Below, one piece after another: positions 11,920 to 60,000 of a stretch of DNA of 64,000 bases. A program made the translations under genes and the position numbers. Source of the stretch: Elusimicrobiota bacterium (lineage in GTDB: Bacteria; Elusimicrobiota; Elusimicrobia; FEN-1173); the NCBI GenBank assembly GCA_041917295.1, contig JAYRXX010000006.1:16876-80875 (forward strand), written 5' to 3'. Numbering within the stretch: position 1 is the first letter of the stretch; every line of letters starts with the position of its first letter. The notes beneath the pieces are model-generated. The model did not search any database and was not told the origin of the DNA. It saw only the letters and a list, made by a program, of their open reading frames with translations.

Positions 11920-11948
11920 GACTCCTCCTGAATGTCGCGCTTGTGCCG

Positions 11949-11978
11949 AAAAAAAAAGCGGTCCTTGTGAGGACCGCT
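11949..11978 (-). terminator. Intrinsic terminator-like hairpin inside the rpsB 5' leader
   Basis: Minus strand AGCGGTCCT-CACA-AGGACCGCT (9-bp stem) then a T run (A9 at 11949-11957 on plus), about 30 nt upstream of the rpsB ATG. Confidence 0.7.
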
Positions 11979-12029
11979 CTCTCGTTTAAGGCAAACAAGG
12001 GATTGAAACATTCCCGTTTCAATCAGCGC

Positions 12030-12126
12030 GCGGTTTTATCCGTCGATATCGACGGCCTCCATCCTCTTCGCTTCGCCCGCGGCCCTTTTTCAGGGACCCC
12101 GTCGGGCGATCCAAGGATGTGTGAAC
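12030..12126 (-). ncRNA. S2 ribosomal protein leader (t44/rpsB leader-like)
   Basis: Minus strand CACACATCC...GGATGGAGGC...ATAAAACC resembles the recalled t44 core (CACAC...GGAGGC ATAACC); lies upstream of rpsB-tsf. Confidence 0.65.
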
Positions 12127-12165
12127 GAGCGGCGCGGTGATCGGCGCCGCCCGCGTTAAACAAAT

Positions 12166-12562
<397 letters not shown>

Positions 12563-12598
12563 GGCGTTCGCGCCCGTCAGAAACAACGGGAAGGGGCT

Positions 12599-12775
12599 TT
12601 ACGCCTTCTTGTCTGTCGAGGAGCCGCCCGGCTCGTCGCCGTCTTTGAGCCCTTTCTTAAACCCGGTAATCGCCTTGCCCAAACTTTTGCCCAACTCCGG
12701 CAACTTGTGGGGCCCAAAAAACAACAACCCGATCAACAACACCAGAAACAGTTCCTGCCATCCCATTCCAAACAT
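12599..12775 (-). CDS. tatA: Twin-arginine translocase subunit TatA/E
   Basis: Absent from the ORF track; MFGMGWQELFLVLLIGLLFFGPHKLPELGKSLGKAITGFKKGLKDGDEPGGSSTDKKA* (58 aa) with the FG.xKLP signature. Confidence 0.93.
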   Translation of the reverse strand: MFGMGWQELFLVLLIGLLFFGPHKLPELGKSLGKAITGFKKGLKDGDEPGGSSTDKKA

Positions 12776-44519: not shown

Positions 44520-45962
44520 GTGAAACAGATCAGTCTGCGGACAAAATTGGTGGCGCACTCGACCCTGCTGGTGTTGGCGGCGGGGACCGGGGTGGGCGTG
44601 TCCCTTTATTTCGCCGAGCGGCAGTATCTGGTCCGCCGGTTCGACCAAACCCAGGAAGACAATGTCACCAGCCTCGTCCAAATCCGCCGCGAGTCGGTGA
44701 CCTCCAACAACGAACAACTGTTGCTCAGCTACCTGTCGTTGCTTCGTCGATCGCGGGCCCTCAGTTACGCCATGATCCAAGACACGACGGGCCGCGTGCT
44801 GTCGCACACAAACCCGGCGTTCGTGGGGCAACGCCTTTCCGACCCGCTGACGCTGGGGGCGCTGGAAACCGCCTCGTTGTTGCGCCAACGGGGCGGCTCC
44901 ACCGATGACGTGATCGACTTGGCGTTGCCCATCGTCCACGGCACCAAACGTTTGGGCGTTGCCCGGGTGGGATATTCCCGCGCCACCATGGCCCAGTTGG
45001 TGGACCAAACGTTGCAGGCGGCCCGACATCGAATTTTGATTGCCACCTTTTTGGCCATGGGGTTCGGCGTGGCGCTGGCGGTGGGATTGTCGTTGTTGTT
45101 TACGAAACCCATCGAGCTCTTGCGCGCGGGGGCCCGAATCATCGGGGAGGGCAACCTCACCCACCGCATTCAGATCACCACCCGCGACGAGTTGGGCGAC
45201 CTGGCCAAAGAGTTCAACGTGATGGCCGCCAAACTTCAAGAACTGGACCAACTGAAACAGGATTTCGTCTCCAACGTCACCCACGAACTGCGGTCGCCGT
45301 TGACGTCTCTGCGCGGGTATGTGGAACTGCTGTTGCGCGAAGGCGCCGGACCGATCAATGAAGAACAACGGGAATTTTTAATCGTCATTAAAAACAATTC
45401 CGTCCGATTGGCGCGGTTCATCGACAACCTGCTGGACGTGGCCAAAATCGAAGCGGGGAAAATCGAATTGCATCCCGAATTCATTCGACTTCAAGATTTG
45501 GCCTTGGAAATGTCGGTGGTTTTTCGGCCCATGGCCCAGGAAAAACGCATCGATTACCGGGTGGAAATGGACCCGCGCCTACGCCCGGTGCGGGCCGACG
45601 CCGACAAAATGCTGGAAGTGCTGACCAACTTGTTAAGCAACGCCTTCAAATTCACTCCCCCAGACGGAAAAGTCACGCTTTCGGCTGTTCCCGAAAACGC
45701 CCACGTTCACATAACGGTATCCGACACGGGCATTGGCATCCCAGCGGAATCCCAGTCCAGCGTGTTCAACAAATTCGAACAGGTGAAACCCACCCAAGGC
45801 CTGGCGCGGAAAACAAAAGGGTCCGGTTTGGGATTGACCATCGTCAAAGGCATTGTGGAAGCCCACGGCGGCCAGGTTTGGATCGAAAGCCAACCGGAAA
45901 AGGGAACCACCGTGCATGTGGTTTTGCCCCATTCCAGTGAGGAGGAGCCGGAGGAGGGATGA
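44520..45962 (+). CDS. Sensor histidine kinase (two TM, HAMP, HisKA, HATPase_c)
   Basis: DELGDLAKEFN (HAMP), THELRSPLT (H-box), NLLSNAFKF, DTGIGIP, GSGLGL. Confidence 0.95.
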   Translation: MKQISLRTKLVAHSTLLVLAAGTGVGVSLYFAERQYLVRRFDQTQEDNVTSLVQIRRESVTSNNEQLLLSYLSLLRRSRALSYAMIQDTTGRVLSHTNPAFVGQRLSDPLTLGALETASLLRQRGGSTDDVIDLALPIVHGTKRLGVARVGYSRATMAQLVDQTLQAARHRILIATFLAMGFGVALAVGLSLLFTKPIELLRAGARIIGEGNLTHRIQITTRDELGDLAKEFNVMAAKLQELDQLKQDFVSNVTHELRSPLTSLRGYVELLLREGAGPINEEQREFLIVIKNNSVRLARFIDNLLDVAKIEAGKIELHPEFIRLQDLALEMSVVFRPMAQEKRIDYRVEMDPRLRPVRADADKMLEVLTNLLSNAFKFTPPDGKVTLSAVPENAHVHITVSDTGIGIPAESQSSVFNKFEQVKPTQGLARKTKGSGLGLTIVKGIVEAHGGQVWIESQPEKGTTVHVVLPHSSEEEPEEG

Positions 45963-46065
45963 ATCATTGCGTCTCCCCATTTTTTTATTCTACGATTGTT
46001 TTGATTTTTTGCGGACTTCGGCAGGGCCACAGAGCGGAATTGGGAATCCATCGCGGAGGACACGT

Positions 46066-46746
46066 ATGCTAAAAAAACGGATCATGGTGGTCGACGACGA
46101 TCGAGACATTCGCCGTCTGGTGGAAAGCATTTTGGCCAAAGAAGGCTTTGTGACCATCGGCGCCGACAGCGGGGCGGACGCGCTCAAAAAAGTGGAAAAC
46201 TCCAAACCCGACTTGATCATATTGGACTTGCAACTGCCGGACAAAGACGGTTTTGAAGTCTGCAAAATTTTACGGTCCGACCCGACCACAAAAACGATTC
46301 CCGTGGTGTTTTTGACGGTGCAAAATTTGGATTCGTATAAAATCGCGGGGTTGGAAATGGGCGCCGACGATTACATCACCAAACCGTTCAACCAAACCGA
46401 ACTGGTGGCGCGGGTGAAAGCGGTTCTGCGCCGAGCCGAATGGCGCGACACCAAAGATTCGCCGGTCAAGGAAGGCCCCTTGAGCGTGGACATGGAAAAA
46501 CACACCGTGATCATGGACGGAAAATCCCTTAACCTGGCGCCCAAAGAGTTTGATTTGTTGCTGACGTTGATGCGCAACCAAGGCAAAGTGTTGACTCGGC
46601 CGGAACTTTCCGAATCGGTGTGGGGCCAAGAGTATTCCAACACCACCCGAACCGTGGATGTCCACGTGGGCCGACTGCGGCGCAAACTGGGAAAACACGG
46701 AGACCGGGTCCGAACCGTCGAACGGATCGGTTACCGCTTCGAGTAA
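46066..46746 (+). CDS. OmpR/PhoB-family response regulator
   Basis: MVVDDD, IILDLQLP, GADDYITKPF; winged helix with RTVDVHVGRLRRKL and TVERIGYRF; GGAGGA RBS before ATG 46066. Confidence 0.95.
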   Translation: MLKKRIMVVDDDRDIRRLVESILAKEGFVTIGADSGADALKKVENSKPDLIILDLQLPDKDGFEVCKILRSDPTTKTIPVVFLTVQNLDSYKIAGLEMGADDYITKPFNQTELVARVKAVLRRAEWRDTKDSPVKEGPLSVDMEKHTVIMDGKSLNLAPKEFDLLLTLMRNQGKVLTRPELSESVWGQEYSNTTRTVDVHVGRLRRKLGKHGDRVRTVERIGYRFE

Positions 46747-46847
46747 CCCCCGCTTTCCCCCCATCGTTTAACGCTCTTTGGCCGTCCTTGTGGCGCGTTT
46801 TAGGCCGAAATCCTCCCGTATTTTTTACCCCAAAGCAAAACCCGACA

Positions 46848-46879
46848 CGTCACTATTTGCGTTGACGCAAATAGTGACG
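46848..46879. repeat. Perfect 15-bp inverted repeat with 2-nt loop between convergent genes
   Basis: CGTCACTATTTGCGT-TG-ACGCAAATAGTGACG. Confidence 0.75.
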
Positions 46880-46914
46880 CCGCCATGTGGAACGTGTTCC
46901 CCCACGGACACGAA

Positions 46915-47295
46915 TCAAATCGGCCGTGTGTGGATGATGTTGTGAATGCTCTGCGCGAATGAAGAATAGCGGACGGGTTTGGCCATGGCGGCTTGGACAT
47001 CGATGGTTTGGAGTTTGCGTTCGTCGGCCCAGCCGGTGACGATCACCACGGGCGTGCCGTTGGTGGCCGGATGGCCGCGAAGTTGTTTTAAAACGTCATA
47101 CCCGTTGACAAAGGGCATTTCCAAATCCAAGGTGATCAAGTGGGGACGAAAATCGATGGCCGCGCGCAAGGCGTCCCGGGGGTCGGTGACACACCGCACT
47201 TCATATCCCATGGACTCGCAAAAGTCCCCCAACAAGTCGGCCATTCCGATATCGTCTTCAATCACCAAAATCCGGCGTGGATCGAGCATGATCAT
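46915..47295 (-). CDS. Single-domain response regulator (CheY-like receiver)
   Basis: ILVIEDD, LITLDLEMP, VVIVTG, MAKPV. Confidence 0.9.
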   Translation of the reverse strand: MIMLDPRRILVIEDDIGMADLLGDFCESMGYEVRCVTDPRDALRAAIDFRPHLITLDLEMPFVNGYDVLKQLRGHPATNGTPVVIVTGWADERKLQTIDVQAAMAKPVRYSSFAQSIHNIIHTRPI

Positions 47296-47370: not shown

Positions 47371-47450
47371 GCGTCTTTCGCCCCTTGCGAACCAATGAAG
47401 CACGATTCCCCCCCCCCCACATTAATTTAATTAACTATGTCCCATGCGAT

Positions 47451-47478
47451 TTTACAATTCCGTTACAAACTCTTAAGG
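47451..47478 (+). promoter_or_regulatory. Conserved upstream element of giant B: TTTACA-N5-GTTACA-N4-CTTAAGG
   Basis: Matches the giant A element; ends 36 nt upstream of ATG 47515. Confidence 0.7.
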
Positions 47479-47514
47479 GAATCTTTAGATTGGTTTGATA
47501 AAATTCCCGTCATT

Positions 47515-50500
47515 ATGAAGCTTTTCTTGCGGATGGTACGGCCTGGCCTTGGGGGGATGATATCGTTTTCTCTTCTGCTTACAGGCCCCCTCGCCCCCCT
47601 GGCCCAGGCCCGAACAGAAGAAAACAAAGCCAATTATTGGACAGCAAGGAAAAGCGTTGCCCGACAACGTTCTCTCCCCACCCAGCCAGTGAAGGCGCCC
47701 TTTCCAAATTCCCCGCACTTAAGAGGTTCCGAGCCGGTAAAGGAAACAAGCAAAAATTGGTTTGAAGTGGCCAGTTACACGCCCGTGTTCGGTCCAAGAT
47801 CCTGGAAGCGGGGCAACGTGCTGGTCCCGTTCGTGACGATCATCCAAGACGCCCACGATAATTACGAAGCCCAACTGGCTCTTAGCCGCACCCTGGCCGA
47901 ACTGGCCGACAAGGAAAAAGACGGCCCCCTCCTGGTGTGCGTCGAAGGCGCCTGGGGGCCCCTTTCCACCGAAATTTTCAAACCACTGGATCCAGAATTA
48001 CGCAAACAGAAAGCCGACCAATTACTTAAGCGTCACATTATCACCGGGGAAGAATTTTTATCAATAGTTCATCCAGGTTTAATTCAACTGGTGGGGGTAG
48101 ACGATCCCGATCTTCATAAAAAGAACACCGTGGCGCGGGAACTGGTGGAAACGCATCGATGGTCCACGACCGAACGAATGAAGATCCTCCAAATCAATAT
48201 GGAGCGATTAAAAAAGGCCGTTTACCCCCCCCGTATGCGATCGATTGATGAAATCAGACTGAAATACCAAACGGGGATATTGAACTCCCAAGAGTTTGCT
48301 AAAAAAATAGTCCCTTATGCCTCAAAAGAGTGGTGGCTAAAAAATTTCCCCCTTTTGTATCAACTCTCATCCCTCGACGCAGATGGTCTGGAAAAATCAC
48401 CAACCCGGGCGGAAATTGAAGAATGGGTGACAACCCTTTCAAACACCGATCTACAAAACAAGATTGATTGGTTGCTTCATCAAAAAAAAATAGACCTACC
48501 CGTCTTGGCCAATGAAATGGAAAAAGCACCGGACCAACTTTTACGGATGGACAAACGGTTTCAACTGTTGGTTGAACTTGATCAATGGATTTCCCTGGCT
48601 GACCGTCTTATTTCCCTCAAAATGACTCCGGAGGATTTGAACCAATTCGATCGGATCGAACCCAGTCAATCCATTGAAGACGTCGCAAACAAAATAAACA
48701 TTATCTCCCGAAAAAACAATGTTCGTGTTTTACCCCTCCCTCAAGCCCGTCGGCCCAATGAAGAAACGACGTGGCAAGCGGCCAAATCATTTTATCGGAT
48801 CGCCAAAAAGCGCGACAACGCCATGGCCACCAACACTCTGCGTCAAGCCAGAAAACATGACAAAAGGAAAGTCGTCCTTATTGCGGGAGGATTCCACACT
48901 CCTGGGATCTCGAGACTCTTTCGTCTCCAACAAAATTTCAACCATTCTCTGTGTCCGAAATTTTCATCGAGCGTAACAAAAGCCCCGCGGCCAACGCTCC
49001 GAAAAAAAAGTCTTTTTCAAAAGAGCATCCCTGAAAACAAACGCAAATTCCGTTTATCCCCAACCCTCACCCCGTTTTTCCGATTTATAGTCTTCATGTC
49101 GATCAGCTCCTTGGCCCTCGCGGCGGGCGGTGGGACCGGATCAGATTGGATTGAATATCTCGTTTTGGCATCCACCATCAGCGACCCCTTTTTAAGGCGT
49201 TTAATATCCCGAAAACCCATAGCCACACCTCCGGAAGAAATATTAATAAACAGTGACGCCGCTGTCGGCAAACTCAAAAATGACTTTTTGGCAATATACC
49301 GCTCTCAAAAGATCCCCGAAGCGATTAAGTTGCTGGACGAAGTTTCTTCTTACAGCGATTTAAGAGCCTATTTTTTATTATCTCTGTTAGAAAAAACTGA
49401 ACAACAAGCACTATTGGAATCAATGCCCCCAGCCTTGAAAAGAAGGGTTTTGAACGGTCTCCCGGACTACGAATATCACGCTTACATCAGAGGGATTGAA
49501 AAAACAATTCAGTGTATTTCTTCCCTTAAAGAAATGGATGATTTGTGGAAAAAGATAATCAGTGACGTGCGAGAGGGTAGTCCAAACAATAAAACTGTTT
49601 TAAGCTACTTAAATGCAATTACAGAAGCAAAAGAACGGGTGAGTATTATTCTTAACAAACTCGAATCACAAGTGGCCTCTCTTAAATCCATTGCAAGTGA
49701 CCCCGGTTCAATTCCCAAATTAATCCCTCCACAAGAAACAACCGATTTTATTTTAACCAGAGTAAATCCAGCGCTTAATACGAGAACCATTGCCCATGGG
49801 CATCTTTATTCAATCTTTTCTCATTTGGAGTACGCAGAAAAATGGTTGGGAACCAAATTGAGTCCGTTCGGAGGGATGGCCGCCTTTGGATTGGGTAGTT
49901 CGGGATATATTAACCGAACGCCACCCGCTCCAACGGCGCTGGAGTCTTCCGTTGCATCTTTACACCTTGCCAACGGAGCGAAAGAACGGTTAAGAGACGA
50001 ACTCTACTTTCTGAGGCACCCCGAAGCCACCTACCGGACTGTCCATCAAGACTGGGTGGAAACGATATCCAACGCAACCCGTCAAACAAAAATTAAGGAT
50101 TTAAAGGCACTTTCTCCCCGATCCAGAGATGATGATGAGATGGAAAGCGAGCGCTTAAAAAAAATTGAGTCCTTTTCCCACCGGATGGGAAATGGAGTCG
50201 AGGATCTTTCATTAAAGGCTCAAGCCTTTCTCGAAACGATTGAGGGGCCGCCTTGGAGTTTAACGCAATCCCATTATTTGGCTGAACTGGAGAGAGTCAG
50301 CGGCTATTTTGAGGGACCGGTTCTCGACCGACGAGCAACGGTTGTCCTTCCCAACCCATCCGACATTCAACTTTTTGCTTCGGATTTGGCGGTCCTCTAT
50401 CGTCATCAAGGCAAGGCAAAAAAACTCGTGATATTGGACATTGGTCGCATCCAAACAAGCCATCACGACCAATCCTCGATTGAAAATTTTTTGACCGCCT

Positions 50501-53500
50501 TACTGGCTGAAGCTAAGGAACGCGGGAATGTCATGATCCTTGTGGATATGGAGGGGGTCCAGGGGGAAGGGAATCGAACCTATTTGCACCTGATGGAACG
50601 ATGGAGGGTGGAAAATGATCAATCCCTGGCTCCGGACTTGATAATTTTGTCAAGCGAGCGAACATTCACATTTCACCTACAACAAGATGCACTCAAAAAG
50701 GCGGCTCCCACCTTCACCGTAACGATGAAGGATCCCGCCCGCTTAACCACGCGACGTTTGGACGCTTTTCAGGAACGGATTTCGGCTCAACTTGGGATTG
50801 TATTGGAACACCCGCTTGTTGAAGCCTGCGTCACACGATTATCAAGCTCCGACCGATTTGGAGTTGTAGACAGATCCATTAAGCTTTTAACAGACCTCGC
50901 TTTGAGGGTACAAAATGAGCGCCAGCCTGTGACCTCCCCCTCGCTCGAGGACTTATCAGGATCAGCCGACCTCTTTTCTGAGGAAACGGGTGAACTACCA
51001 CTTGAATTAAGAGCTGTCGCCAGATTGGATGTCATGCCCCCGGATTCCCAGATAACAGTGAAAAAAAAACTCGCCGAGCTCAGCAACCTACGAATAACAG
51101 ACCCAAACAGCGAACGGATAGCCGATATTGAACGTCTGATCGATACGATAATCAGTATTCCTTGGATTGAAATGGCCCCGCCCATTGTTTCCCGCGATGC
51201 CCCGAGGGAAATTCAAGACCAGCAAATAGAAGAACTTTACAACCGATTTGAAGAAAAATTGCGTCAAAGCCACACCGGTCTCGAAGAAAATGTCGTTCAG
51301 GCTCTGAAAGATTTACTTGGCTTAGTTATTCTTAGTGACATCGGCAGGGTCCCCCCCACCACCAATATTCCGACATTGGTGGGCCCTCCCGGGGTGGGCA
51401 AAACCGCGCTCATGCAACTGCTTGGGGAAGTTACAGGCCGCCCAGTGTATCGCATCTCAATGAATACGATACAAGATCCCATGAATCTTAAAGGCAGTTC
51501 TCCCACTTTTCTTCACGCGAAAGAAGGGCGCTTGGTCGCAGAGTTAATTGGGGGAGAACCACGGGTCGGGAATCCCATTTACTTCCTCGATGAGCTGGAC
51601 AAAACACCTCCAGCGGTACAAACAGTTTTTCTTGATGTCGGCCAAAGTTACTTGCGTGACAATTACGCCGGGATGGTCTTTGTTGGGAACAGTCTCTTTG
51701 TTGCCACAGCCAATCATCTCGAAAATGTAATTGCTCCGCTTAGAAACCGCATGGACATTATCCCCATGCCCGGATATACACTGAGGGGAAAAACGAACAT
51801 TGCAACTCGAAACACCCTTCCCCGGGCCTTGGCAAAAAACTTTTTAAGCGATGACCCCGGAAACGGACATCAAGAAGTCGCGTTCAATAATCGGCCGGCC
51901 GTCCTTCAATTCCTAGCTCAAGGCTACGCCCGAGAAGAAGGGATGCGACACATGATCAGACTCATCGACAATATCCTGATCGAAGCCTACGCTCTTTACA
52001 TTAAAACGGGCAGACCCACTCTCATTGATGAAAAATTCGTCCGATCTATTCTAGGGGCGCCGATCGAATTTCTGAGAATACCCAAACAAGACCCAGTCGG
52101 GAGAGCGTATTTTCCCCATCCTTCTGGGAATCTCATTGACACACACGCAATCCCAAAATCCACTATATCGCCTTTGGCGGGACGGTCGGCTTTTCTTGAA
52201 ATGACATTACCCGTTGAACTGTTGCTCAACGAACACGGCCCCGACTGGACAAAGAATATCTGTGCTCTATTTGATGGTAAGAGAGATTCAATCGCTCCGA
52301 TTTCCAATCTTCAAATTGACGTTCCGCGCGTGGTCCAGGAAGATGCGGCGGCACAACTGGCCATGGCGATCGCAACCCTTTCCAAGGCAACGGGGATTCC
52401 TGTAAAACGGGAAATGGCGTTTATCGGGGAAATGGACAACCGAGCCCGCGTTGTTGCCGCAACGAAACTTCGCCAACGAATCTTGGTTGCCTACGACGCC
52501 GGCGCACGTTGGCTGGCCATCCCTCACGGAAATAAGAACGAACTGATGACCAGCCTGTTTCCTGCGATGGAGGCCATCCGAGGTCCTATTTTGGAACCTC
52601 CCGTCAACGATGGCGAAGAATGGACAGTTTACAGGCCTCGGCAGGGGAATATCCCTTTTGTTGCCGATAAGGGGCCTCTTGAATCTGTTTTGGCGTTGGC
52701 GGAAGGAGAAATTTCAATGGCACCCTCGGAATGTATCTATGTATTAGTTCGTACCGTTGAAGACGGTTTTTCCTTGGCGTTTGCCAAACTGGGTCGGCAG
52801 TCTTTCAAGGAGAATCCCCCTTCACCAATTGACATTATCCCACCCCAGGAAAAAACAAAACCAGCGGTAAGTGAACTTACCCGTCCCTTTGAGAAATTTC
52901 CGGAGCTTCCCACCCGGGTTTTGGAGTGGAACATCAACGTTAATGGCCAGTTGGTTGACCTTCGTAATCTTTTTAGAAATGGCCTAACAGAGGAAGCTCT
53001 CTCGCTCATCCAAAATATTACTCAAACAATCGCATCAACGGGTTCACTGGATTCAATCGCACAACTTGAAGCCTGCGCGCGTTTTTCCATTGCCCAGAAC
53101 GACGGTGCCGCCTTTGTCGATTTCTTGTTAGGTCTTGACCCCACGACACGATGCCGTATCATCTCGGTTTTTTCCCCAGAAACCCTGGGGACTCTTGTCC
53201 ACCTCAAAGGGGCGTCAGGTTACCTAACAGAAACCGCGCGATGGGAAGCGAATTTAATAAAAATTCAGTCCACCCTGGCATCGATAAAAAATAATTCCGT
53301 TCAGCGGAAAGACGTTATCGAAATTCAAGATATGTTAAGCGTGCCGGGCGCTTTCCCCCCCTTGTTTAGAGAAGGCGGCAGTTATTATACGATCGTAGGC
53401 CTAAGAGCGGCGATCGATAATTATCTTTATCGGGAAGGTGGAATAGACGATATGAAGGCCCATATGGAGGAATGCTTAGAAATAGGAATTTCTTGCCTCA

Positions 53501-56500
53501 ATAAATACAGAACAGTCCTGTCATACAATGCAAACCCGACAGGCCTTCTTGCTGTAAAAAATGCCATGGACCAAGCCTTGACCGAACTAGCTGTTTTTCG
53601 ACCACTGTTTTTAAGCCCCGATGAACTTGGGGGTCAAGATCCGGAAGGAAGTTGGCAAGTATACATGGCCAACGAACACCTGCGCCAAGAAACACTGAGA
53701 GGATCTTGCCGGTTTATCCCCTTAGAAGATCTTCCAGCCAGCGCAGGAATAGATTCCCCTGAAAGCAACGTCTGGCATGCCCTTTTCGGGGTCCCATTTG
53801 AACGATTTGTTGAAGTATCAAACCGGGATAATCATAAGGTGATGGTATTGACAGGTTGCCCCCCGCTCCTTCGAAACGCTTGGGCTTCCTATTTGAATCG
53901 GAACCTTTGGAAAGTGGGATTGCCTCAGCGAATAATAAAAATTGACGTTTCAAAATTATTGGAGAGCAATTATCGATCAGGAGAATCGACCGAATCAAAG
54001 TGGCCGCGATTGAAAAAAACTCTTGAGGCCGCGCGAGATTCGGGAAATATGGTGGTATGGATCGACTTGGACTTTCTTCCTCCCTCCGCCCCGCCGTTTC
54101 TTATTTCGCGGATTATGCGGTTATTCAATCAAGGTTCTGGGCAAGCGTCTGTCATTTTTACCGGAGAAGAATTCGTGCACCAAAACCTTGTCAATTCCTC
54201 ACCCGTGTACGCCGGGGGGGTGACCCACCTATCAATCGGTGAAGAAAACCGGGAAAACCTTCTTCGATTGGAAATAATTGAGCGGGAAAAAATAACGAAA
54301 GTCCAATACCCCGCTCCCGTCGTAGAGCATCTCTGCGAAAAAGTGCGATCCGGATCCGTTAGTCTCTCTCTTGCGCGAAGAATTCTAGACCGAGCCCACT
54401 CTCCTTCGGGCGAACCCCTAACTCCGGCTCTCATTGATTCAACACAAAAGGGGATCGATCTGGAAAATGATCAAATGCTTCAGTGGGCAACTTTGTGGGA
54501 ACAGTTTGAGTTCATATCTGGAAAGATGCCTAAATCAGCTCGCAAGCGGGCAATGACCCTCTTTGGCCAATTCCGAAAAGCGTCAGGGGACGAAGCGGCG
54601 GCCCTTGAGAATCAAATTAGAATTATTATCGAATTCCCCTGGGAAAAAAGAGCTCCCTCACCTATTCCCCGCCTGCCGCCAAATCCCCAACCTGAGGATT
54701 ATAAAAATCTTGAATCGATCATTGCGGGACAGATCAACACTGTAAGAGAGGAACTTGATCGATCCCATCATGGAATGGATCGGGTTAAAGAGCTGATCAT
54801 CAATTACGTACTGAGGGATTCGCTTGCACGCGCGCACACTGGGAAAGGAGTTGGGAAACCTCTCTTGGTCGTGTCCCACCCAGGACAGGGGAAAACCACC
54901 CTTGCTGAGTCTGTTGCCCGGGCATTAGGGCGACCATTCATATTCATTCCCCTGGGTGCGGTAAAACACACCGAAGAGCTCACAGGGTTCGCTTCCCAGT
55001 ACGTCAATTCTGACGCCGGGTTGCTGATAAAAGGAATGATAAGAGCAGGCGCATTGAACCCGGTCATGCTATTAGACGAAATTGACAAAATGGGTGGGGG
55101 CGAAACGAGTCCAATAGATTCGATTCTTTCCCTCACTGATCCCGAACAAAATGAAAAATTTCGGGACGAATATCCCCAAGTCGATTTTCCAATGGACGAA
55201 CCATTGTATTTTGCAACCGCGAACGATATTGAAAAATTACCTGGACCCGTCAGAGACCGATTTGAGATTATAGTTCTTCCCCCTTACACGCAACAGGAGA
55301 AATCAGCCATCCTGGTTGATAAAGCCCTGCCTGAACTCATGGAAAAATGGGAAACCAACGATCGCGTGACAGTGACGAATGCCTTCCCCATCGCGCAAAT
55401 CATCCTATCGATCGTCCAGGAACACGGGGTGCGACTTGCCAAGGCAAAGATGTCCACGCTGATTTTGAGATCGCTCATAGAATCCCACTTAACGCGCACC
55501 CCCATCGAAATAACGGAAGCTGTCGCTCGAAGACTATTAAGGATATCGGAACCCCCACCATCCGCCGAAATCGTCTCCGCCCGTGTTGGAGAAATTAACG
55601 GCCTTGTCTACAACGAGGCCACCGGGGAGGGCGCGGTACTGGGAATTCATGCCAACTTACACAATTTGGGGGGAGACGAACCCTTCCGATACGTGGGAAT
55701 TGGACGCCTCGGCCCATCAATGAAAGCAAGCCTTGATCGCGCGGTCGCCCTTGCCCAAGTCCGTGCTCAAACGATGATCCCTTCCCTCAACCTCAATGGA
55801 AAAGTTCTGACCGTTTTGGTCACCAAACAAGACGTTCAAAAGGACGGAGACTCAGCCGGTGTGGGCTTTTATTTCGTGGCGCTCTCCGCATTGACGGGAG
55901 TTCCGGTAAGCCAAGACATTGCCCTTACGGGAGCGATCTCCCCATCGGAAGGAGCGATGCAAGTTGGCGCCATCGAGGCAAAAGTATCTGCGGCAATTAA
56001 CGCAGGAGTGAAATACATTTTCATTCCAACCGAAAACAGGGATGTGGTTGACGGAATCGTTCGCAGCAATGGGACAAACATAACGCTCGTTGAAGACCTG
56101 ACCGAAACTAGCTTCCCCTTCACCCTGCGCATTCCCAGACTGTTGTGGAGTCCAGGCCTTGAACTCCGCGCACAGGCGAATCTTGAATCTTCGGTTGAAC
56201 AGGTGGGAATGGCCAAGAATCAGATTTCGTTTGAAAAAGGAGTGGCTGTCATCCGATGTTCCGCTAGTCAATTGAAAGATTTCTCTAAATCGAACAAACA
56301 CTATTCAGAACCACCCACATTGGTCCTCTATCCTGATGCAAATTTAATCGAAGACCGCGTGCTTACCAAAAACAGTCCCAGGGGGACTGACATCAACATG
56401 CGGGATCTTCGAAATGGGTTTATCACGCCCCAGTTCTCCATCCTTCTATTCTTCTTCACTGCCCTGGCCATCGGGCTCCCGATTGGGTTCGAAATCAGCC

Positions 56501-56991
56501 ACTTTATACATTGGGCAAGCACCCACATTTGGTACGTCATCTCGGCCGTCCCTGTTCTAATATTGTCATTTTTCACCCCCATAATCATTTCGCGAATCAT
56601 TAGTCGAAGAATCCCCCCCGCTTCAGGCCCATTAATAGAGGCAAACGGAACCATCCGATTTACGGATATTACAGCGTGGGAAGTAATGGTTGATTTAAAC
56701 AGCCTGGCGAGAAAAAAAGCAGACAATGAGATCCTACGAGTTATTGAAACAGCCATCTCCCAAATTGAGGCCACTCGTTTACTCAACACAAAGGACCCGA
56801 TTTGGAATAAATTATACCCGCATTTAAAACATGGGCCTGCGTCTTATTCCAGGCGCAACCTCATCGCCCTGCTGGAGCAAGCAAACCCCGAACTTAGTCA
56901 AATCGAGATTATTCCACCAAACACAGATCACGTTCAAAGTGTGATCTCACAATTTCTTAACACACAACACGCCAGATTGATTCAAACATAA
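47515..56991 (+). CDS. Giant B: about 3158-aa membrane-anchored protein with a TIKI/TraB-like N-module and two tandem (Clp-like pseudo-AAA + Lon AAA+ + Lon protease) units
   Basis: Signal-like MKLFLRM...LAPLAQA; Walker A GPPGVGKT (51382) and SHPGQGKT (54874); Walker B FLDELDK and LLDEIDK; KDGDSAG (Ser 55852) and GAIEAK (Lys 55981); start moved from 47437 to 47515 on signal-peptide and upstream-element evidence. Confidence 0.9.
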   Translation: MKLFLRMVRPGLGGMISFSLLLTGPLAPLAQARTEENKANYWTARKSVARQRSLPTQPVKAPFPNSPHLRGSEPVKETSKNWFEVASYTPVFGPRSWKRGNVLVPFVTIIQDAHDNYEAQLALSRTLAELADKEKDGPLLVCVEGAWGPLSTEIFKPLDPELRKQKADQLLKRHIITGEEFLSIVHPGLIQLVGVDDPDLHKKNTVARELVETHRWSTTERMKILQINMERLKKAVYPPRMRSIDEIRLKYQTGILNSQEFAKKIVPYASKEWWLKNFPLLYQLSSLDADGLEKSPTRAEIEEWVTTLSNTDLQNKIDWLLHQKKIDLPVLANEMEKAPDQLLRMDKRFQLLVELDQWISLADRLISLKMTPEDLNQFDRIEPSQSIEDVANKINIISRKNNVRVLPLPQARRPNEETTWQAAKSFYRIAKKRDNAMATNTLRQARKHDKRKVVLIAGGFHTPGISRLFRLQQNFNHSLCPKFSSSVTKAPRPTLRKKSLFQKSIPENKRKFRLSPTLTPFFRFIVFMSISSLALAAGGGTGSDWIEYLVLASTISDPFLRRLISRKPIATPPEEILINSDAAVGKLKNDFLAIYRSQKIPEAIKLLDEVSSYSDLRAYFLLSLLEKTEQQALLESMPPALKRRVLNGLPDYEYHAYIRGIEKTIQCISSLKEMDDLWKKIISDVREGSPNNKTVLSYLNAITEAKERVSIILNKLESQVASLKSIASDPGSIPKLIPPQETTDFILTRVNPALNTRTIAHGHLYSIFSHLEYAEKWLGTKLSPFGGMAAFGLGSSGYINRTPPAPTALESSVASLHLANGAKERLRDELYFLRHPEATYRTVHQDWVETISNATRQTKIKDLKALSPRSRDDDEMESERLKKIESFSHRMGNGVEDLSLKAQAFLETIEGPPWSLTQSHYLAELERVSGYFEGPVLDRRATVVLPNPSDIQLFASDLAVLYRHQGKAKKLVILDIGRIQTSHHDQSSIENFLTALLAEAKERGNVMILVDMEGVQGEGNRTYLHLMERWRVENDQSLAPDLIILSSERTFTFHLQQDALKKAAPTFTVTMKDPARLTTRRLDAFQERISAQLGIVLEHPLVEACVTRLSSSDRFGVVDRSIKLLTDLALRVQNERQPVTSPSLEDLSGSADLFSEETGELPLELRAVARLDVMPPDSQITVKKKLAELSNLRITDPNSERIADIERLIDTIISIPWIEMAPPIVSRDAPREIQDQQIEELYNRFEEKLRQSHTGLEENVVQALKDLLGLVILSDIGRVPPTTNIPTLVGPPGVGKTALMQLLGEVTGRPVYRISMNTIQDPMNLKGSSPTFLHAKEGRLVAELIGGEPRVGNPIYFLDELDKTPPAVQTVFLDVGQSYLRDNYAGMVFVGNSLFVATANHLENVIAPLRNRMDIIPMPGYTLRGKTNIATRNTLPRALAKNFLSDDPGNGHQEVAFNNRPAVLQFLAQGYAREEGMRHMIRLIDNILIEAYALYIKTGRPTLIDEKFVRSILGAPIEFLRIPKQDPVGRAYFPHPSGNLIDTHAIPKSTISPLAGRSAFLEMTLPVELLLNEHGPDWTKNICALFDGKRDSIAPISNLQIDVPRVVQEDAAAQLAMAIATLSKATGIPVKREMAFIGEMDNRARVVAATKLRQRILVAYDAGARWLAIPHGNKNELMTSLFPAMEAIRGPILEPPVNDGEEWTVYRPRQGNIPFVADKGPLESVLALAEGEISMAPSECIYVLVRTVEDGFSLAFAKLGRQSFKENPPSPIDIIPPQEKTKPAVSELTRPFEKFPELPTRVLEWNINVNGQLVDLRNLFRNGLTEEALSLIQNITQTIASTGSLDSIAQLEACARFSIAQNDGAAFVDFLLGLDPTTRCRIISVFSPETLGTLVHLKGASGYLTETARWEANLIKIQSTLASIKNNSVQRKDVIEIQDMLSVPGAFPPLFREGGSYYTIVGLRAAIDNYLYREGGIDDMKAHMEECLEIGISCLNKYRTVLSYNANPTGLLAVKNAMDQALTELAVFRPLFLSPDELGGQDPEGSWQVYMANEHLRQETLRGSCRFIPLEDLPASAGIDSPESNVWHALFGVPFERFVEVSNRDNHKVMVLTGCPPLLRNAWASYLNRNLWKVGLPQRIIKIDVSKLLESNYRSGESTESKWPRLKKTLEAARDSGNMVVWIDLDFLPPSAPPFLISRIMRLFNQGSGQASVIFTGEEFVHQNLVNSSPVYAGGVTHLSIGEENRENLLRLEIIEREKITKVQYPAPVVEHLCEKVRSGSVSLSLARRILDRAHSPSGEPLTPALIDSTQKGIDLENDQMLQWATLWEQFEFISGKMPKSARKRAMTLFGQFRKASGDEAAALENQIRIIIEFPWEKRAPSPIPRLPPNPQPEDYKNLESIIAGQINTVREELDRSHHGMDRVKELIINYVLRDSLARAHTGKGVGKPLLVVSHPGQGKTTLAESVARALGRPFIFIPLGAVKHTEELTGFASQYVNSDAGLLIKGMIRAGALNPVMLLDEIDKMGGGETSPIDSILSLTDPEQNEKFRDEYPQVDFPMDEPLYFATANDIEKLPGPVRDRFEIIVLPPYTQQEKSAILVDKALPELMEKWETNDRVTVTNAFPIAQIILSIVQEHGVRLAKAKMSTLILRSLIESHLTRTPIEITEAVARRLLRISEPPPSAEIVSARVGEINGLVYNEATGEGAVLGIHANLHNLGGDEPFRYVGIGRLGPSMKASLDRAVALAQVRAQTMIPSLNLNGKVLTVLVTKQDVQKDGDSAGVGFYFVALSALTGVPVSQDIALTGAISPSEGAMQVGAIEAKVSAAINAGVKYIFIPTENRDVVDGIVRSNGTNITLVEDLTETSFPFTLRIPRLLWSPGLELRAQANLESSVEQVGMAKNQISFEKGVAVIRCSASQLKDFSKSNKHYSEPPTLVLYPDANLIEDRVLTKNSPRGTDINMRDLRNGFITPQFSILLFFFTALAIGLPIGFEISHFIHWASTHIWYVISAVPVLILSFFTPIIISRIISRRIPPASGPLIEANGTIRFTDITAWEVMVDLNSLARKKADNEILRVIETAISQIEATRLLNTKDPIWNKLYPHLKHGPASYSRRNLIALLEQANPELSQIEIIPPNTDHVQSVISQFLNTQHARLIQT

Positions 56992-57012: not shown

Positions 57013-60000
57013 TTAGGCATCCGATCCGATCCGTTTCATGGCTTTCAGGTGATTGTGGATCTCTTCAATCGGCAAGCGCAGGCCCAGGGTGAGCACGTCT
57101 TTGCCCAGTTTTTCCCACGTGGCTTTGTCTTGCAACACCGTCGTGTCCGCCGGGGTCGCGCCGATCATCTCCGGGATCAACGACGTCAACACATTGAACC
57201 GAATCACCCCGCCTTTCACCGCCCCGCGGCGATCCAACAGATCTTTCTCACCGAACACAATGGACCCATTGGCCGCGCCTTTGGCCAACGCCCCGCGAAC
57301 CTTTAGCATATCGTCTACCGACAAACCGTTGTTCACCACCAGAATCTTCAATGTTGATAACTGAGCGTCGTCCAACCGGGACGCCGCAAGAGCCCTCAGT
57401 TTCTGGACCGCATCCTCGTCCACCCGACCAGTGGAGATCAGGTCCGTCGCCGCCACCAGCACCAGCGACGTCTGCGACTGTCGAATCGCTTCATTCATCA
57501 GCGCCTTTTCCATTCGGCCCTGGTAGAGCTGGCCCATCCAGTATTCGCTGTTCGTCAACCGCGCATACCGTTCCCCCATCACCGTCACAATCGAATAGCT
57601 CAACCACGCCCGCCGCGCCATCGCCGGCGTCAGTTCCTCAATTTCTCGCAACAGCCCCAACAAGCTCAGATCCGCCAATTCGTTCGGCATCGAAGAACTG
57701 ATTCGGTATTGAACCACCATCTCAGACGCACCGCCCGTCACTCCGTACCGAGCCAAAGTGGGGATATGTCCCACTTCGTGCACCAACCGGGCCATCACAT
57801 CTCCCGCTTCCCCGTTGCGCACGTGGACCACATACCCCTCTTCGTTCGCCACCACAAACGCGTTCGTGTGCGACTCCGTGTTCCTGTGCCCCTCGGCCGC
57901 CAAAATCCGCTCAAAACTTACAGAATTTTCATGCAACACCACCCTCACCGGCGGCATACCCAAGGGAGACATTTTCAATTTCTTTTCTGATTCCAGCATC
58001 TTTTTCAACATCCCTTCCGCCGCCTCTTGCGCCTGAGCCTGTGTTAACCGCGCCCCAACAGCACCGGTCACTCCCAGAAGGCGATACACCCGTTCCGGCA
58101 ACACACCCGTCTCTTTCTCCAGCTCAGCAATCCGTTTCTCCAGGCTCGCCAACAATTCTCCTTCACGCGTCGGCACACCCATCTGCTCAAGATACCGCGC
58201 CAGCCGCGCCTCCGCCAGAATCTCCATTAACATCGGGTCCATCGCCTGTAGTTCCGGCGCCAACTGATGCATAAACTCCACCGTTCGTTGACGCAGTTGC
58301 CCCTCCCAACTCAACCGGCTTGCGCGCCCACTTCGAACCGCCCGGTTTGCCGCCTCTATCATTTCGTTCATCTGCTTCACGGTCAACCCCAACGTCTTCC
58401 AGTCCGCGTCCTCCGGCAACACAGCCGACAACGCCAACGCGTTGGCCACCGACGTGTTCAAGATCGGGTTCCCTTCCGCTTCCATCCCAAGGAACCCTTC
58501 CATGTCACGTCCTTGTTCAACCGCCTCCCGCACAATTTCCCCCACCGTCCTCGTCGCGATCAGTTTCAACCCATCCCGCGTCACCTGCGCTTCTTGAACT
58601 AACCCGTTGGGCATGACTCGAAACGCCACAACCCTCTTCCCCGACGCGTCCGAAATAAGCTGGAATTCAGGATCCCCCATCGCTCCAGGAACACGCTGTT
58701 GTCTATTAATGAACTGGATAAACGCCGCCATGTCCGCAACCGAACTATTCACTCGGTTTCCATCCAATTCCAAGTTCTCATGAATGTGCAACGTCGGGCC
58801 GGTAACAGCAGGAACCTGAACACCCCCGCTGACCGTCACCTGCCCAGCCACAACCGCAGGCTGACCATTCTCTCCAAACACCGCCACCTGGTTCGATCCC
58901 AATTGGCTCGCGAATCCTGGGTTCGCCGCAATCCACGCCGCGGCCGCCACTGCCCGCGCTGCCGCACGACCGGGCACTCTTGAACCCAATGTCGTTATCC
59001 CCGATTGTTCACCGATTTCCTTATTTAATACCACAGCACGAACCAACTCTTGCCCAACCATTTTGCCTGTTTCCACAAACCATCCTTTCGGCAAACTCCC
59101 CATGTTATAAACCATGTGGGCCACAGTCGTCACGATTGTCCCCACCACAGGCCCCGCCACCACGGAGGAAGCCAAAATCAATCCAACTCCAGCCCCAAAC
59201 AACCCAAACCGCTTGCCGAACTCTTGCGCGTCTTGAACCAATGCCCCCCGATCGAAAACGGCCGACCACCCGCCTCGACCTCGATCCGGGTTCAATTGCC
59301 CGTATCGCCCATGCCATTCCGCGAAAGTATGGGCCAGAGCAAAACCCAATCCCACCAAAACCCCCACCTCCCCCAACCCGGCCAAACTCGACAGGTCACC
59401 TGCAAACACCATTTCCTTTGCTCCCCACAACCACGTTTCCAAGAACATCAGCCCTTCAACGATCGGGCTCACAACCGCAACAACCCCCAAATATCCCAAC
59501 CGTTGCCCAAGGGAACCCTCTTTCCAATCCCGCAAATAAGCTTCAAACACAGACGCGACCGATCTCGCTCCGCTCGCCGTCGCACCCGCGTTTCGCTCGC
59601 TGGCTTCGGGACCCTTGGGTTCATCTGGTGATCTAGGATTTGATACTTCTCCTGTCCCGGAGTTCGGTGGAGCCTCCCCCTTTGCCAGCCTCTGAATCAT
59701 ATTCCAAATAGAATTGGTAGCTCCTGGTCCTTCCTGACGCAACAGATTATCAATCTCTTTAGGATAACCGGCATTATCGGTCAAATCAAACATGCTCCCA
59801 GTCAGCCTATATGGCGGATCCCCAAAGACACCGCCCCTCTTCTGGTAATTAAATGGAACTTGGTCATTATTGCCAAAAGAAACATTGATCCCCGGCCTTT
59901 TTTCTCCCTGGGTCAGGCCTGCGCCGGAGAAACTCCACCCATCACCAGCTCGATCGTGCCATCCCCATCCCTCTTCCGGCCTTTCCGTTCCTCCACTCAA

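What the first reader, a model, noticed from the sequence alone, without database searches (positions are those of the whole stretch)
50310..54400. Degenerate ClpA/B NBD1-like domains replace the Lon N-domain in both repeats (Clp-Lon chimera)
Seen: before each Lon core is a segment resembling Hsp100 NBD1. Unit 1 (about 50310-50910): KLVILDIGRI...LLAEAKERGNVMILVDME...GIVLEHPLVEAC...DRSIKLLTDLA. Unit 2 (about 53830-54400): RIIKIDVSKLL...TLEAARDSGNMVVWIDLD...VQYPAPVVEHLC...ARRILDRA. Compare the recalled ClpB pattern RVLALDMGAL...QEGNVILFIDE...VQITDPAIVAA...DKAIDLIDEA. Walker A and the Walker B glutamate are missing. Inference: an inactive AAA+ fold recruited as a substrate-binding or ring-stacking tier.
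Basis: inference. Interest (0 to 1): 0.65.

Follow-up and report, generated by a model that had tools for sequence, protein, structure and literature searches.

The report
Dead Clp-type ATPase domains fronting Lon
A giant membrane protein from an Elusimicrobia-like bacterium carries two tandem Lon proteases, each preceded by a catalytically dead copy of the first ATPase domain of Clp/Hsp100 chaperones; this layout is not annotated in the source databases and bears on how Lon and Clp machines are related.

Summary
Window 47437-56991 (+) is one 3184-aa ORF with two LonA-type cores. Before each core lies a ~210-aa segment (aa 945-1158 and 2112-2322) carrying the quoted motifs. Single-sequence searches were not significant. 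An exhaustive search found four relatives, and all of them have both segments. A 10-sequence profile of the segments hits only the first AAA+ module (D1) of ClpC, ClpC1, ClpB, ClpE and Hsp104 in the PDB (best E 7e-8). The profiles do not match ClpB D2, E. coli Lon AAA+ or the protein's own Lon AAA+ modules. AlphaFold models (pLDDT 73-77) show five strands alternating with helices plus a helical lid, and the Foldseek top hits are ClpA, ClpB and ClpC1. The Walker A glycines, Lys and Thr, the Walker B Glu, the Arg finger (in unit 2) and the pore-loop Tyr are lost, so these are pseudo-ATPase domains. The helices that follow match the C-terminal part of the LonA HI(CC) region (E 9e-5). The whole ~1150-aa unit is tandemly duplicated (hhalign E 1e-52). 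Unit 1 has a dead protease dyad in all five members. The proposed function, a non-catalytic tier for stacking, assembly or docking, is inferred. "Replaces the Lon N-domain" is only partly shown. This is a new variant of LonA, relevant to the Rotanova LonA-ClpB hypothesis.

The parts
47437..56991 (+). Giant ORF, 3184 aa. Architecture: signal/TM, ChaN/Tiki-like domain, TM, unit 1, unit 2, two TMs, C-terminal tail.
   Evidence: ORF list. The same protein was called on a Logan contig. Four full-architecture relatives exist.
47734..48936 (+). N-terminal domain (aa ~100-500), probably extracytoplasmic, with weak ChaN/Tiki-superfamily similarity (GGFH motif at aa ~484-487).
   Evidence: PF04187, E 1.8e-4, 22 bits, below the 27.7-bit cut-off. 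Conserved in relatives. Flanked by hydrophobic segments.
49066..49131 (+). Predicted transmembrane helix (aa 544-565).
   Evidence: Kyte-Doolittle scan. An equivalent segment is present in P0002, P0003 and P0005.
49162..50268 (+). Unit 1 upstream region (aa 576-944), fold unknown.
   Evidence: No Pfam hit of note. Aligns only weakly with the unit 2 upstream region within the whole-unit hhalign.
50269..50910 (+). Unit 1 D1* (aa 945-1158): degenerate Hsp100 D1-like AAA+ domain. P-loop position reads VVLPNPSDIQ. The Walker B position reads ILVDME (Asp kept, Glu lost). Lid ends ...DRSIKLLTDLALRV.
   Evidence: Profile A2 hits ClpC/ClpC1/ClpB D1, E 4e-5 to 5e-3. hhalign against ClpB D1 gives P 3.8e-6. 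Homologous to unit 2 D1*, E 4.5e-8.
50911..51222 (+). Unit 1 LonA-type helical linker (aa 1159-1262), with VMPPDSQ...SIPW.
   Evidence: Profile A6 hits LonA residues ~190-309, E 9e-5 to 2.7e-4.
51223..52026 (+). Unit 1 Lon AAA+ module (aa 1263-1530). Walker A GPPGVGKT and Walker B YFLDELDK are intact.
   Evidence: Pfam AAA/AAA_5/AAA_2 and NCBIfam lon/ClpA hits. Alignment A4.
52027..52611 (+). Unit 1 Lon protease-like domain (aa 1531-1725). Catalytic Ser is replaced by Ala (QEDAAAQ) and Lys by Arg, so it is predicted inactive.
   Evidence: Weak ChlI, Lon_C, BrxL and RadA hits. Alignment A4 shows the dyad lost in all five members.
52834..53769 (+). Unit 2 upstream region (aa 1800-2111), fold unknown.
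   Evidence: Conserved in relatives. No Pfam hit and no significant PDB profile hit (best E 0.12).
53770..54402 (+). Unit 2 D1* (aa 2112-2322): degenerate Hsp100 D1-like AAA+ domain. P-loop position reads LTGCPPLLRN. The Walker B position reads VWIDLD (Asp kept, Glu replaced by Leu). Lid ends ...LARRILDRAHS.
   Evidence: Profile A1 hits ClpE/ClpC D1, E 3e-4. Merged profile A5 gives E 7e-8. AF2 models show beta1 to beta5 plus lid. Foldseek top hits are ClpA, ClpB and ClpC1.
54403..54690 (+). Unit 2 LonA-type helical linker (aa 2323-2418), with KMPKSAR...EFPW.
   Evidence: Profile A6 hits LonA. hhalign of A1 against E. coli Lon 191-307 gives P 0.002.
54691..55536 (+). Unit 2 Lon AAA+ module (aa 2419-2700). 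Walker A SHPGQGKT, Walker B MLLDEIDK.
   Evidence: PF00004 E 8e-28 and TIGR00763 E 2e-112. Foldseek to LonA, E 1e-34.
55537..56106 (+). Unit 2 Lon protease domain (aa 2701-2890). The Ser-Lys dyad is intact (KDGDSAG, GAIEAKV).
   Evidence: PF05362 E 9e-28. Alignment A4.
56422..56592 (+). Two predicted C-terminal transmembrane helices (aa 2996-3052).
   Evidence: Kyte-Doolittle scan. Also present in P0002; P0004 has one.

Best explanation
Each of the two flagged segments is a catalytically dead (pseudo-ATPase) copy of the first AAA+ module (D1/NBD1: alpha/beta subdomain plus helical lid) of class-I Hsp100 proteins of the ClpB/ClpC type.

Each D1* joins, through helices homologous to the C-terminal part of the LonA HI(CC) region (MP...PW motif), to a LonA-type AAA+-protease core. 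The resulting ~1150-aa unit is: upstream region, D1*, linker, Lon AAA+, Lon protease. It has been duplicated in tandem inside a giant membrane-anchored protein. The family is rare: five clusters in the 1.84 billion cluster representatives of about 15 billion proteins. One member comes from an Elusimicrobia MAG.

Unit 1 keeps its Lon ATPase motifs but has lost the protease Ser-Lys dyad. Unit 2 keeps both.

Shown here: the homology, the fold, the loss of ATPase motifs, the duplication and the conservation.

Inferred: D1* cannot hydrolyse ATP and probably cannot bind it. It likely works as a non-catalytic upper tier on the Lon ring, positioned as D1 is over D2 in ClpA/B/C. In that role it would help oligomer assembly and form an entry vestibule or docking surface for substrates or adaptors, while the Lon AAA+ module does the translocation.
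For: - Specific D1 homology. Independent 5-sequence profiles of unit 2 and unit 1 each put Hsp100 D1 on top (ClpE/ClpC E 3e-4; ClpC E 4e-5). The merged 10-sequence profile gives ClpC E 7e-8. About 30 consecutive top hits are all ClpC, ClpC1, ClpB, ClpE or Hsp104, aligned to D1 residues ~186-279.
- Specificity controls by hhalign. Against ClpB D1, P is 1.7e-4 and 3.8e-6. Against ClpB D2 it is 0.2 and 0.35, against E. coli Lon AAA+ 0.31 and 0.73, and against the family's own Lon AAA+ modules 0.13-0.38.
- Fold. AF2 models have pLDDT 73.5 and 77.3, with five strands alternating with helices (beta1 to beta5) followed by a three-helix lid. Foldseek gives 232 PDB hits at E<=1e-3. Everything listed is AAA+, and the top hit is ClpA at 4e-7.
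- Motif loss in all ten copies. The only invariant positions in the D1*-only alignment A5 are the Walker A Pro, the Walker B Asp and a lid Arg (R208), plus a near-invariant Gly of the GN motif.
- The linker is homologous to LonA 190-309 (E 9e-5 and 2.7e-4).
- Unit 1 and unit 2 are homologous end to end (E 1.1e-52, 952 columns).
- D1* is the part of the pre-Lon region that stays detectable in the most distant relatives, P0004 and P0005.
Against: - No single-sequence or Pfam evidence exists.
- Profile significance rests on only five proteins, giving ten domain copies.
- Confident sequence alignment to Hsp100 D1 covers only helix alpha0 through the Walker B strand. The rest (beta4, beta5, lid) is supported by collinear low-confidence alignment and by the AF2 fold.
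- Models are of medium confidence. I could not inspect coordinates, so stacking of D1* on the Lon ring was not tested.
- A conserved Lys or Arg sits at the Walker A lysine position in all unit 2 copies, so residual phosphate or nucleotide binding cannot be excluded.
- The function is argued by analogy only.
Confidence: 0.72

Rival explanations
1. The D1* domains arose by internal duplication and decay of the protein's own Lon AAA+ module. They would then have no relation to Hsp100 D1.
For: Weak alignments of A1 and A2 to the family's own Lon AAA+ modules are roughly in register (A1 35-119 against 49-133). All AAA+ domains share a common fold.
Against: hhalign P is only 0.13-0.38 to the family's own Lon AAA+ modules and 0.31-0.73 to E. 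coli Lon AAA+. Against ClpB D1 it is 1.7e-4 and 3.8e-6. No Lon, D2, FtsH or ClpX chain appears among the PDB profile hits, whereas about 30 Hsp100 D1 chains do.
Confidence: 0.05
2. D1* is still a nucleotide- or phosphate-binding regulatory module, acting as an allosteric sensor that binds but does not hydrolyse, rather than an inert scaffold.
For: The Walker A Pro and the Walker B Asp are invariant in all ten copies. A basic residue occupies the Walker A Lys position in all five unit 2 copies (R/K/K/K/R). A Thr or Ser is often kept near the sensor-1 position.
Against: The glycine-rich P-loop (GxxxxGK[ST]) is replaced by Pro/Leu-rich sequence in unit 2. In unit 1 it is acidic or polar, with no conserved basic residue. 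The Arg finger is absent in unit 2.
Confidence: 0.15
3. The resemblance is a chance match or a generic Rossmann-like alpha/beta region, not a real AAA+ domain.
For: Pfam finds nothing. Single-sequence E-values are about 1. Unit 1 against unit 2 by Smith-Waterman is only marginally above shuffles.
Against: Two independent profiles converge on the same D1 register. The merged profile gives E 7e-8. The units match each other at E 4.5e-8. The AF2 topology and Foldseek hits are exclusively AAA+.
Confidence: 0.03

Closest known systems
Class-I Hsp100/Clp unfoldases, D1 (NBD1) module of ClpB, ClpC, ClpC1, ClpE, Hsp104 and ClpA
   Same: The profile match is specific to D1, from helix alpha0 through the Walker B strand. 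It includes D1-typical features: the Pro of GEPGVGKT, the 'EGLP' segment before beta2 (unit 2 copies), and 'GN-hhh-ID'. The predicted alpha/beta-plus-lid fold has ClpA, ClpB and ClpC1 as best structural matches. D1* sits N-terminal to a second AAA+ module, as D1 sits before D2.
   Different: The Walker A glycines, Lys and Thr, the Walker B Glu and the pore-loop Tyr are lost in all copies; the Arg finger is absent in unit 2 and not conserved in unit 1. No Clp_N domain was detected. The second tier is a LonA AAA+-protease rather than an Hsp100 D2 working with a separate ClpP.
LonA proteases (E. coli Lon, Y. pestis Lon, T. thermophilus Lon, human LONP1)
   Same: The AAA+ and S16 protease core matches: TIGR00763 E 2e-112 and Foldseek E 1e-34 at 24-29% identity. 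The pre-AAA+ helices match the C-terminal part of LonA HI(CC), with the MP...PW motif (E 9e-5).
   Different: The TIGR00763 score of 377 bits is below the 608-bit equivalog cut-off. No LonA N-domain (PF02190) is detected. A full, dead AAA+ alpha/beta domain precedes the HI(CC)-like helices. Two units sit in one 3184-aa membrane-anchored chain, and unit 1 has a dead protease dyad.
Rotanova et al. 2019 hypothesis (PMC6722904): the LonA HI(CC) domain is a remnant of the H1(M) lid of a ClpB-like D1 module
   Same: This family has exactly the predicted 'missing' piece. A D1-type alpha/beta domain and lid lie immediately upstream of HI(CC)-like helices and a LonA core. The lid-plus-linker profile touches both LonA 190-308 (E 2.7e-4) and a ClpC fragment, 6emw_D (E 0.024, identity of the fragment not checked).
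   Different: The paper argues from structural resemblance in canonical LonA and describes no protein with a D1 alpha/beta domain. Here the domain is present but dead. Whether it is ancestral or a later fusion is unresolved.
Catalytically inactive AAA+ tiers and subunits known elsewhere (Pex1/Pex6 D1 ring, NSF D2, clamp-loader delta and delta') - from general knowledge
   Same: These are AAA+ folds that have lost hydrolysis motifs and are retained as structural or assembly elements. Clamp-loader chains are among the Foldseek hits (1jr3_D, 3glh_A).
   Different: They belong to different AAA+ clades and different machines. No homology beyond the superfamily is claimed.

Membership tests
AAA+ superfamily (fold level) | alpha/beta nucleotide-binding subdomain with five parallel strands, followed by a helical lid | tested here: met
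   AF2 secondary structure shows five strands alternating with helices (beta1 to beta5) followed by three lid helices, in two independent models (pLDDT 73.5 and 77.3). Foldseek gives 232 hits at E<=1e-3, and all listed hits are AAA+.
Hsp100/Clp class-I D1 module | Sequence-profile homology specific to D1 rather than to D2 or other AAA+ clades | tested here: met
   Profile A5 against the PDB: ClpC E 7e-8, and about 30 top hits are all Hsp100 D1. hhalign against ClpB D1 gives P 1.7e-4 and 3.8e-6, against D2 0.2 and 0.35, and against Lon AAA+ >=0.13.
Hsp100/Clp class-I D1 module | Walker A GxxxxGK[ST] | tested here: not met
   ClpB GEPGVGKT aligns to GCPPLLRN, GCPPPLKN, GCPNTLKN, SLPNRLKP and SCPDDLRP in unit 2, and to LPNPSDIQ and similar in unit 1. 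Only the Pro is invariant.
Hsp100/Clp class-I D1 module | Walker B hhhhDE with catalytic Glu | tested here: not met
   The Asp is invariant in 10 of 10 copies. The next residue is Leu in all unit 2 copies and Met, Ile or Leu in unit 1.
Hsp100/Clp class-I D1 module | Arg finger (ClpB R331/R332) and sensor 1 | tested here: inconclusive
   A low-confidence collinear alignment, read with the AF2 strand positions, places no Arg at the finger position in unit 2 and variable basic residues there in unit 1. A Thr or Ser often lies near sensor 1. The alignment confidence in this region is too low to be sure.
Hsp100/Clp class-I D1 module | Pore-loop-1 aromatic residue (KYRG) | tested here: not met
   The window copy has NYRSGE, but the Tyr is not conserved in P0002 to P0005 or in any unit 1 copy. 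This loop has pLDDT below 50.
Hsp100/Clp class-I proteins (whole protein) | Clp_N N-domain and a D2 module with ClpB_D2-small | tested here: not met
   There is no Clp_N and no ClpB_D2-small Pfam hit. The second AAA+ module is LonA-type.
LonA protease | AAA+ module fused to an S16 protease domain with a Ser-Lys dyad | tested here: met
   Unit 2 has PF00004 E 8e-28, PF05362 E 9e-28 and the KDGDSAG/EAK motifs. Foldseek to LonA gives E 1e-34. In unit 1 the ATPase motifs are met, but the dyad is not (Ser to Ala, Lys to Arg).
LonA protease | HI(CC)-type helical region before the AAA+ module | tested here: met
   Profile A6 against LonA 216-309 and 190-308 gives E 9e-5 and 2.7e-4. The confident part is the MP...PW three-helix segment, and the long coiled-coil helix appears shortened.
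LonA protease | N-terminal LON substrate-binding (PUA-like) domain, PF02190 | tested here: not met
   There is no PF02190 hit on the whole protein at E<=1, or on the upstream segments at E<=10. A PDB profile search of the unit 2 upstream region finds nothing. The fold of the upstream regions was not predicted.
LonA protease | NCBIfam equivalog score for endopeptidase La (TIGR00763 cut-off 608 bits) | tested here: not met
   The score is 377 bits.

The most novel reading that the evidence does not exclude
This family may preserve, in decayed form, the two-tier ancestor of LonA: D1, a lid with coiled coil, D2-like AAA+, then protease. Canonical LonA would have lost the D1 alpha/beta subdomain and kept only its lid as HI(CC). 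If so, this family is the first sequence-level bridge between class-I Hsp100 unfoldases and LonA, and direct support for the Rotanova hypothesis. The tandem active/dead units might also assemble as a trimer that forms a pseudo-hexameric Lon ring with alternating live and dead protease sites.
Probability: 0.25. Interest if true: 0.78.

Novelty: new variant of a known kind. Interest (0 to 1): 0.6.

Why it matters
Lon and the Clp/Hsp100 machines are the two main AAA+ protein-degradation systems in bacteria. [quoted passage not shown]

This family shows a recognisable D1-type domain physically joined to LonA-type HI(CC) helices and a LonA core. It gives a concrete protein in which to test whether the two systems share a two-tier ancestry.

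It also offers a natural case of a pseudo-ATPase tier and a pseudo-protease unit inside a single chain. That is useful for asking what non-catalytic AAA+ tiers contribute to assembly and substrate entry.

Source databases label these proteins only as 'ATP-dependent Lon protease' or 'AAA family ATPase'. The domain is therefore currently invisible to annotation.

Tried and rejected
- Pfam and NCBIfam on the isolated segments found no AAA, AAA_lid_9 or Clp hit at E<=10 (one search failed because of a frame error).
- Single-sequence phmmer against the PDB was not significant.
- The search for homologous proteins was run with the unit 2 segment and with the 10-sequence profile. Both returned nothing, not even the protein itself, so that index appears not to hold this family.
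The metagenome scan found no relative. The genome scan found one Elusimicrobia MAG.
- Internal duplication of the Lon AAA+ module as the origin of D1* was rejected on the hhalign controls.
- I looked for a Lon N-domain or Clp_N in the ~300-aa regions upstream of each D1* and found none by Pfam or by PDB profile search.
- The whole-unit AF2 model was meant to show whether D1* stacks on the Lon AAA+ module. The tool returns no coordinates or PAE, and Foldseek simply matched the LonA core, so stacking remains untested.
- Literature searches found no description of a D1-Lon fusion or a tandem Lon giant protein. The library is limited to open-access papers.

Full report
**What is at the locus**

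The finding lies inside one uninterrupted ORF, window 47437-56991 on the + strand, encoding 3184 aa. The identical protein is called on a 40.9-kb Logan contig.

Pfam and NCBIfam see two Lon-type cores:
- Unit 2 (aa ~2432-2888) matches AAA (E 8e-28), Lon_C (E 9e-28) and endopeptidase La TIGR00763 (E 2e-112). The TIGR00763 score is 377 bits, below the 608-bit equivalog cut-off.
- Unit 1 (aa ~1258-1705) gives weaker AAA_5, AAA_2, ClpA-D2-like and ChlI/Lon_C-like hits.

**Checking the observation**

Every quoted peptide is present where stated.

On single sequences the resemblance to Hsp100 NBD1 is not significant:
- Pfam gives no hit on the isolated segments at E<=10.
- phmmer against the PDB gives nothing for unit 1. 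For unit 2 it gives only ClpC D1 at E 0.7-1.5, though in the right register from the P-loop strand to the Walker B strand.
- The two segments align to each other with a Smith-Waterman score of 47, against 34+-5 for shuffles. Twelve of 300 shuffles reach that score.

**Relatives**

- A word-indexed search found nothing.
- An exhaustive phmmer scan of 1.84 billion representatives, using aa 1800-2440 as query, found four relatives: P0002 (3162 aa, 45% identity), P0003 (2265 aa), P0004 (3535 aa) and P0005 (3261 aa).
- For the two distant relatives, the matched part of the query is exactly the flagged segment plus the linker (query 327-624 and 337-604).
- All four relatives carry both segments.
- P0003 is MBK8574904.1 from an Elusimicrobia MAG, where the gene is interrupted.
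- Source databases call these proteins 'ATP-dependent Lon protease' or 'AAA family ATPase'.

**Homology to Hsp100 D1**

- A 5-sequence profile of the unit 2 segments (A1) puts ClpE and ClpC on top of the PDB (E 3e-4 to 6e-3). The alignment covers ClpC 174-279.
- An independent 5-sequence profile of the unit 1 segments (A2) puts ClpC, ClpC1 and ClpB on top (E 4e-5 to 5e-3), with a weak second stretch over the D1 lid.
- The two profiles match each other over 248 columns (hhalign E 4.5e-8, probability 94.9%).
- Merged into a 10-sequence profile (A5), the best hit is ClpC at E 7e-8. About 30 consecutive hits are all class-I Hsp100 proteins (ClpC, ClpC1, ClpB, ClpE, Hsp104), aligned to D1 residues ~186-279. 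No Lon, D2, FtsH, ClpX or p97 chain appears.

Controls with hhalign:

| Target | P for A1 (unit 2) | P for A2 (unit 1) |
|---|---|---|
| E. coli ClpB D1 | 1.7e-4 | 3.8e-6 |
| E. coli ClpB D2 | 0.2 | 0.35 |
| E. coli Lon AAA+ | 0.31 | 0.73 |
| The family's own Lon AAA+ modules | 0.13-0.24 | 0.15-0.38 |

The domains are therefore D1-type. They are not decayed copies of the adjacent Lon ATPase.

**Fold**

- AlphaFold2 on A1 (aa 2100-2440; pLDDT 73.5) gives five strands alternating with helices, then a three-helix lid, then longer helices.
- A second model of the whole unit 2 from a 10-sequence alignment (aa 2112-2895; pLDDT 77.3) gives the same topology, with pLDDT about 75-85 over the domain.
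ClpA is on top (7uiv_F, 4e-7), followed by ClpB, ClpC1 and Hsp104, and by other AAA+ proteins including clamp-loader and RFC chains, CbbX, RuvB and ORC.

**Catalytic motifs**

- Walker A. ClpB GEPGVGKT aligns to GCPPLLRN, GCPPPLKN, GCPNTLKN, SLPNRLKP and SCPDDLRP in unit 2, and to LPNPSDIQ-like sequence in unit 1. Only the Pro is invariant in all ten copies. Unit 2 copies keep a Lys or Arg at the lysine position.
- Walker B. The Asp is invariant. The catalytic Glu is Leu in unit 2 and Met, Ile or Leu in unit 1.
- Pore loop. The pore-loop Tyr is not conserved, and the loop is low-confidence in the models.
- Arg finger and sensor 1. A low-confidence collinear alignment places no Arg at the finger position in unit 2. 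Sensor 1 is uncertain.

The domains are best described as pseudo-ATPases.

**What follows and what surrounds the domains**

- A profile of the lid plus the following helices (A6) hits T. thermophilus LonA 216-309 (E 9e-5) and E. coli LonA 190-308 (E 2.7e-4). The confident part is the MP...PW three-helix segment.
- The same profile touches a ClpC fragment (6emw_D, identity of the fragment not checked) at E 0.024, which is suggestive only.
- The Lon core is LonA-type by structure (Foldseek E 1e-34).
- Whole unit 2 aligns to whole unit 1 over 952 columns (E 1.1e-52), so the entire unit was duplicated.
- In all five members unit 1 keeps Walker A and B of the Lon ATPase but has Ser to Ala (or Asp) and Lys to Arg at the protease dyad. 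Unit 2 keeps the dyad.
- No LonA N-domain and no Clp_N are detected.
- The ~300-aa regions upstream of each D1* have no recognisable relatives.
- Hydrophobicity suggests a signal or TM segment, an outside ChaN/Tiki-like domain, a TM at aa 544-565, the two units in the cytoplasm, then two TMs near aa 3000-3050.

**How it most likely works**

Shown: a D1-type AAA+ fold without hydrolysis motifs, conserved in every family member and in both units, fixed immediately upstream of LonA HI(CC)-type helices and a LonA motor.

Inferred, from established knowledge of ClpA/B/C, where D1 stacks on D2 and contributes strongly to hexamer assembly, and from other inactive AAA+ tiers such as Pex1/6 D1 and NSF D2:
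- D1* forms a non-catalytic upper tier on the Lon ring.
- That tier supports assembly and provides an entry or docking surface.
- The Lon AAA+ module alone drives translocation.

I give the identity of the domain about 0.9 and the proposed role about 0.5. The main rival for function is a nucleotide-sensing regulatory role, based on the conserved basic residue and the Asp in unit 2. The rival for origin, internal Lon AAA+ duplication, is disfavoured.

**Relation to what is known**

Rotanova et al. (PMC6722904) proposed, from structural resemblance, that the LonA HI(CC) domain is a remnant of the H1(M) lid of a ClpB-like D1 module. The present family contains the piece that canonical LonA lacks, a D1-type alpha/beta subdomain, directly joined to HI(CC)-like helices.

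This fits the hypothesis. It cannot by itself separate an ancestral relic from a later recombination at the homologous lid and coiled-coil region. 'Clp-Lon chimera' is therefore one of two open readings.

I found no description of this architecture in the searchable literature. The family is very rare: five clusters in the 1.84 billion cluster representatives of about 15 billion proteins.

**Verdict**

- This is a new variant of LonA with a dead Hsp100 D1-type tier, tandemly duplicated with a dead-protease first unit.
- Interest is moderate to high for AAA+ protease specialists. Mechanistic claims await structures and biochemistry.

Noticed in passing
window 52336-52356 (aa 1634-1640) and aa ~1677-1682, compared with 55840-55860 and 55966-55986: The unit 1 Lon protease domain has lost the catalytic dyad (KDGPSAG-type Ser to Ala in QEDAAAQ; Lys to Arg) in all five family members, while its ATPase motifs are intact. 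Unit 2 keeps KDGDSAG and the Lys. This is a conserved pairing of one pseudo-protease and one live protease in a single chain.
   Followed up: partly
window 47734-48936 (aa ~100-500): The N-terminal domain between the signal/TM segment and the TM at aa 544-565 has a weak ChaN/Tiki-superfamily hit (PF04187, E 1.8e-4, below cut-off; GGFH motif). It is conserved in all relatives and is possibly an extracytoplasmic protease-like or binding domain.
   Followed up: partly
window 57013-63954 (-), running off the window end: The convergent neighbour is part of an 8211-aa ORF on the Logan contig and has no Pfam hit. Its C-terminal part is syntenic in the Elusimicrobia MAG (44-61% identity; L005 13364-15891). 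The two giant genes are therefore conserved neighbours.
   Followed up: partly
window 44520-47295 compared with L005 704-3387: The histidine kinase and the two response regulators upstream are 76%, 87% and 69% identical to those of the Elusimicrobia MAG. The adjacent giant Lon protein is only 39% identical. Gene order is the same, but the giant protein diverges much faster than its neighbours.
   Followed up: partly
L005 10813-10919: In the Elusimicrobia MAG the orthologous gene is interrupted within the unit 2 linker (ORF 4016-10813, then 10919-12616), although tblastn reads through. This is either an assembly error in a long-read contig or a pseudogene.
   Followed up: no
window 26988-32627 (-), especially 28001-30000: Another large ORF (1879 aa) has no Pfam hit. 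It spans a marked GC dip: 0.41 against about 0.55 for the rest of the window.
   Followed up: no
window 53854-53883 (aa 2140-2149) and equivalents in the relatives: All five unit 2 D1* copies keep a Lys or Arg at the position of the Walker A lysine, even though the glycine-rich loop is gone. Unit 1 copies do not. This may be a residual phosphate contact or a new interaction site.
   Followed up: no
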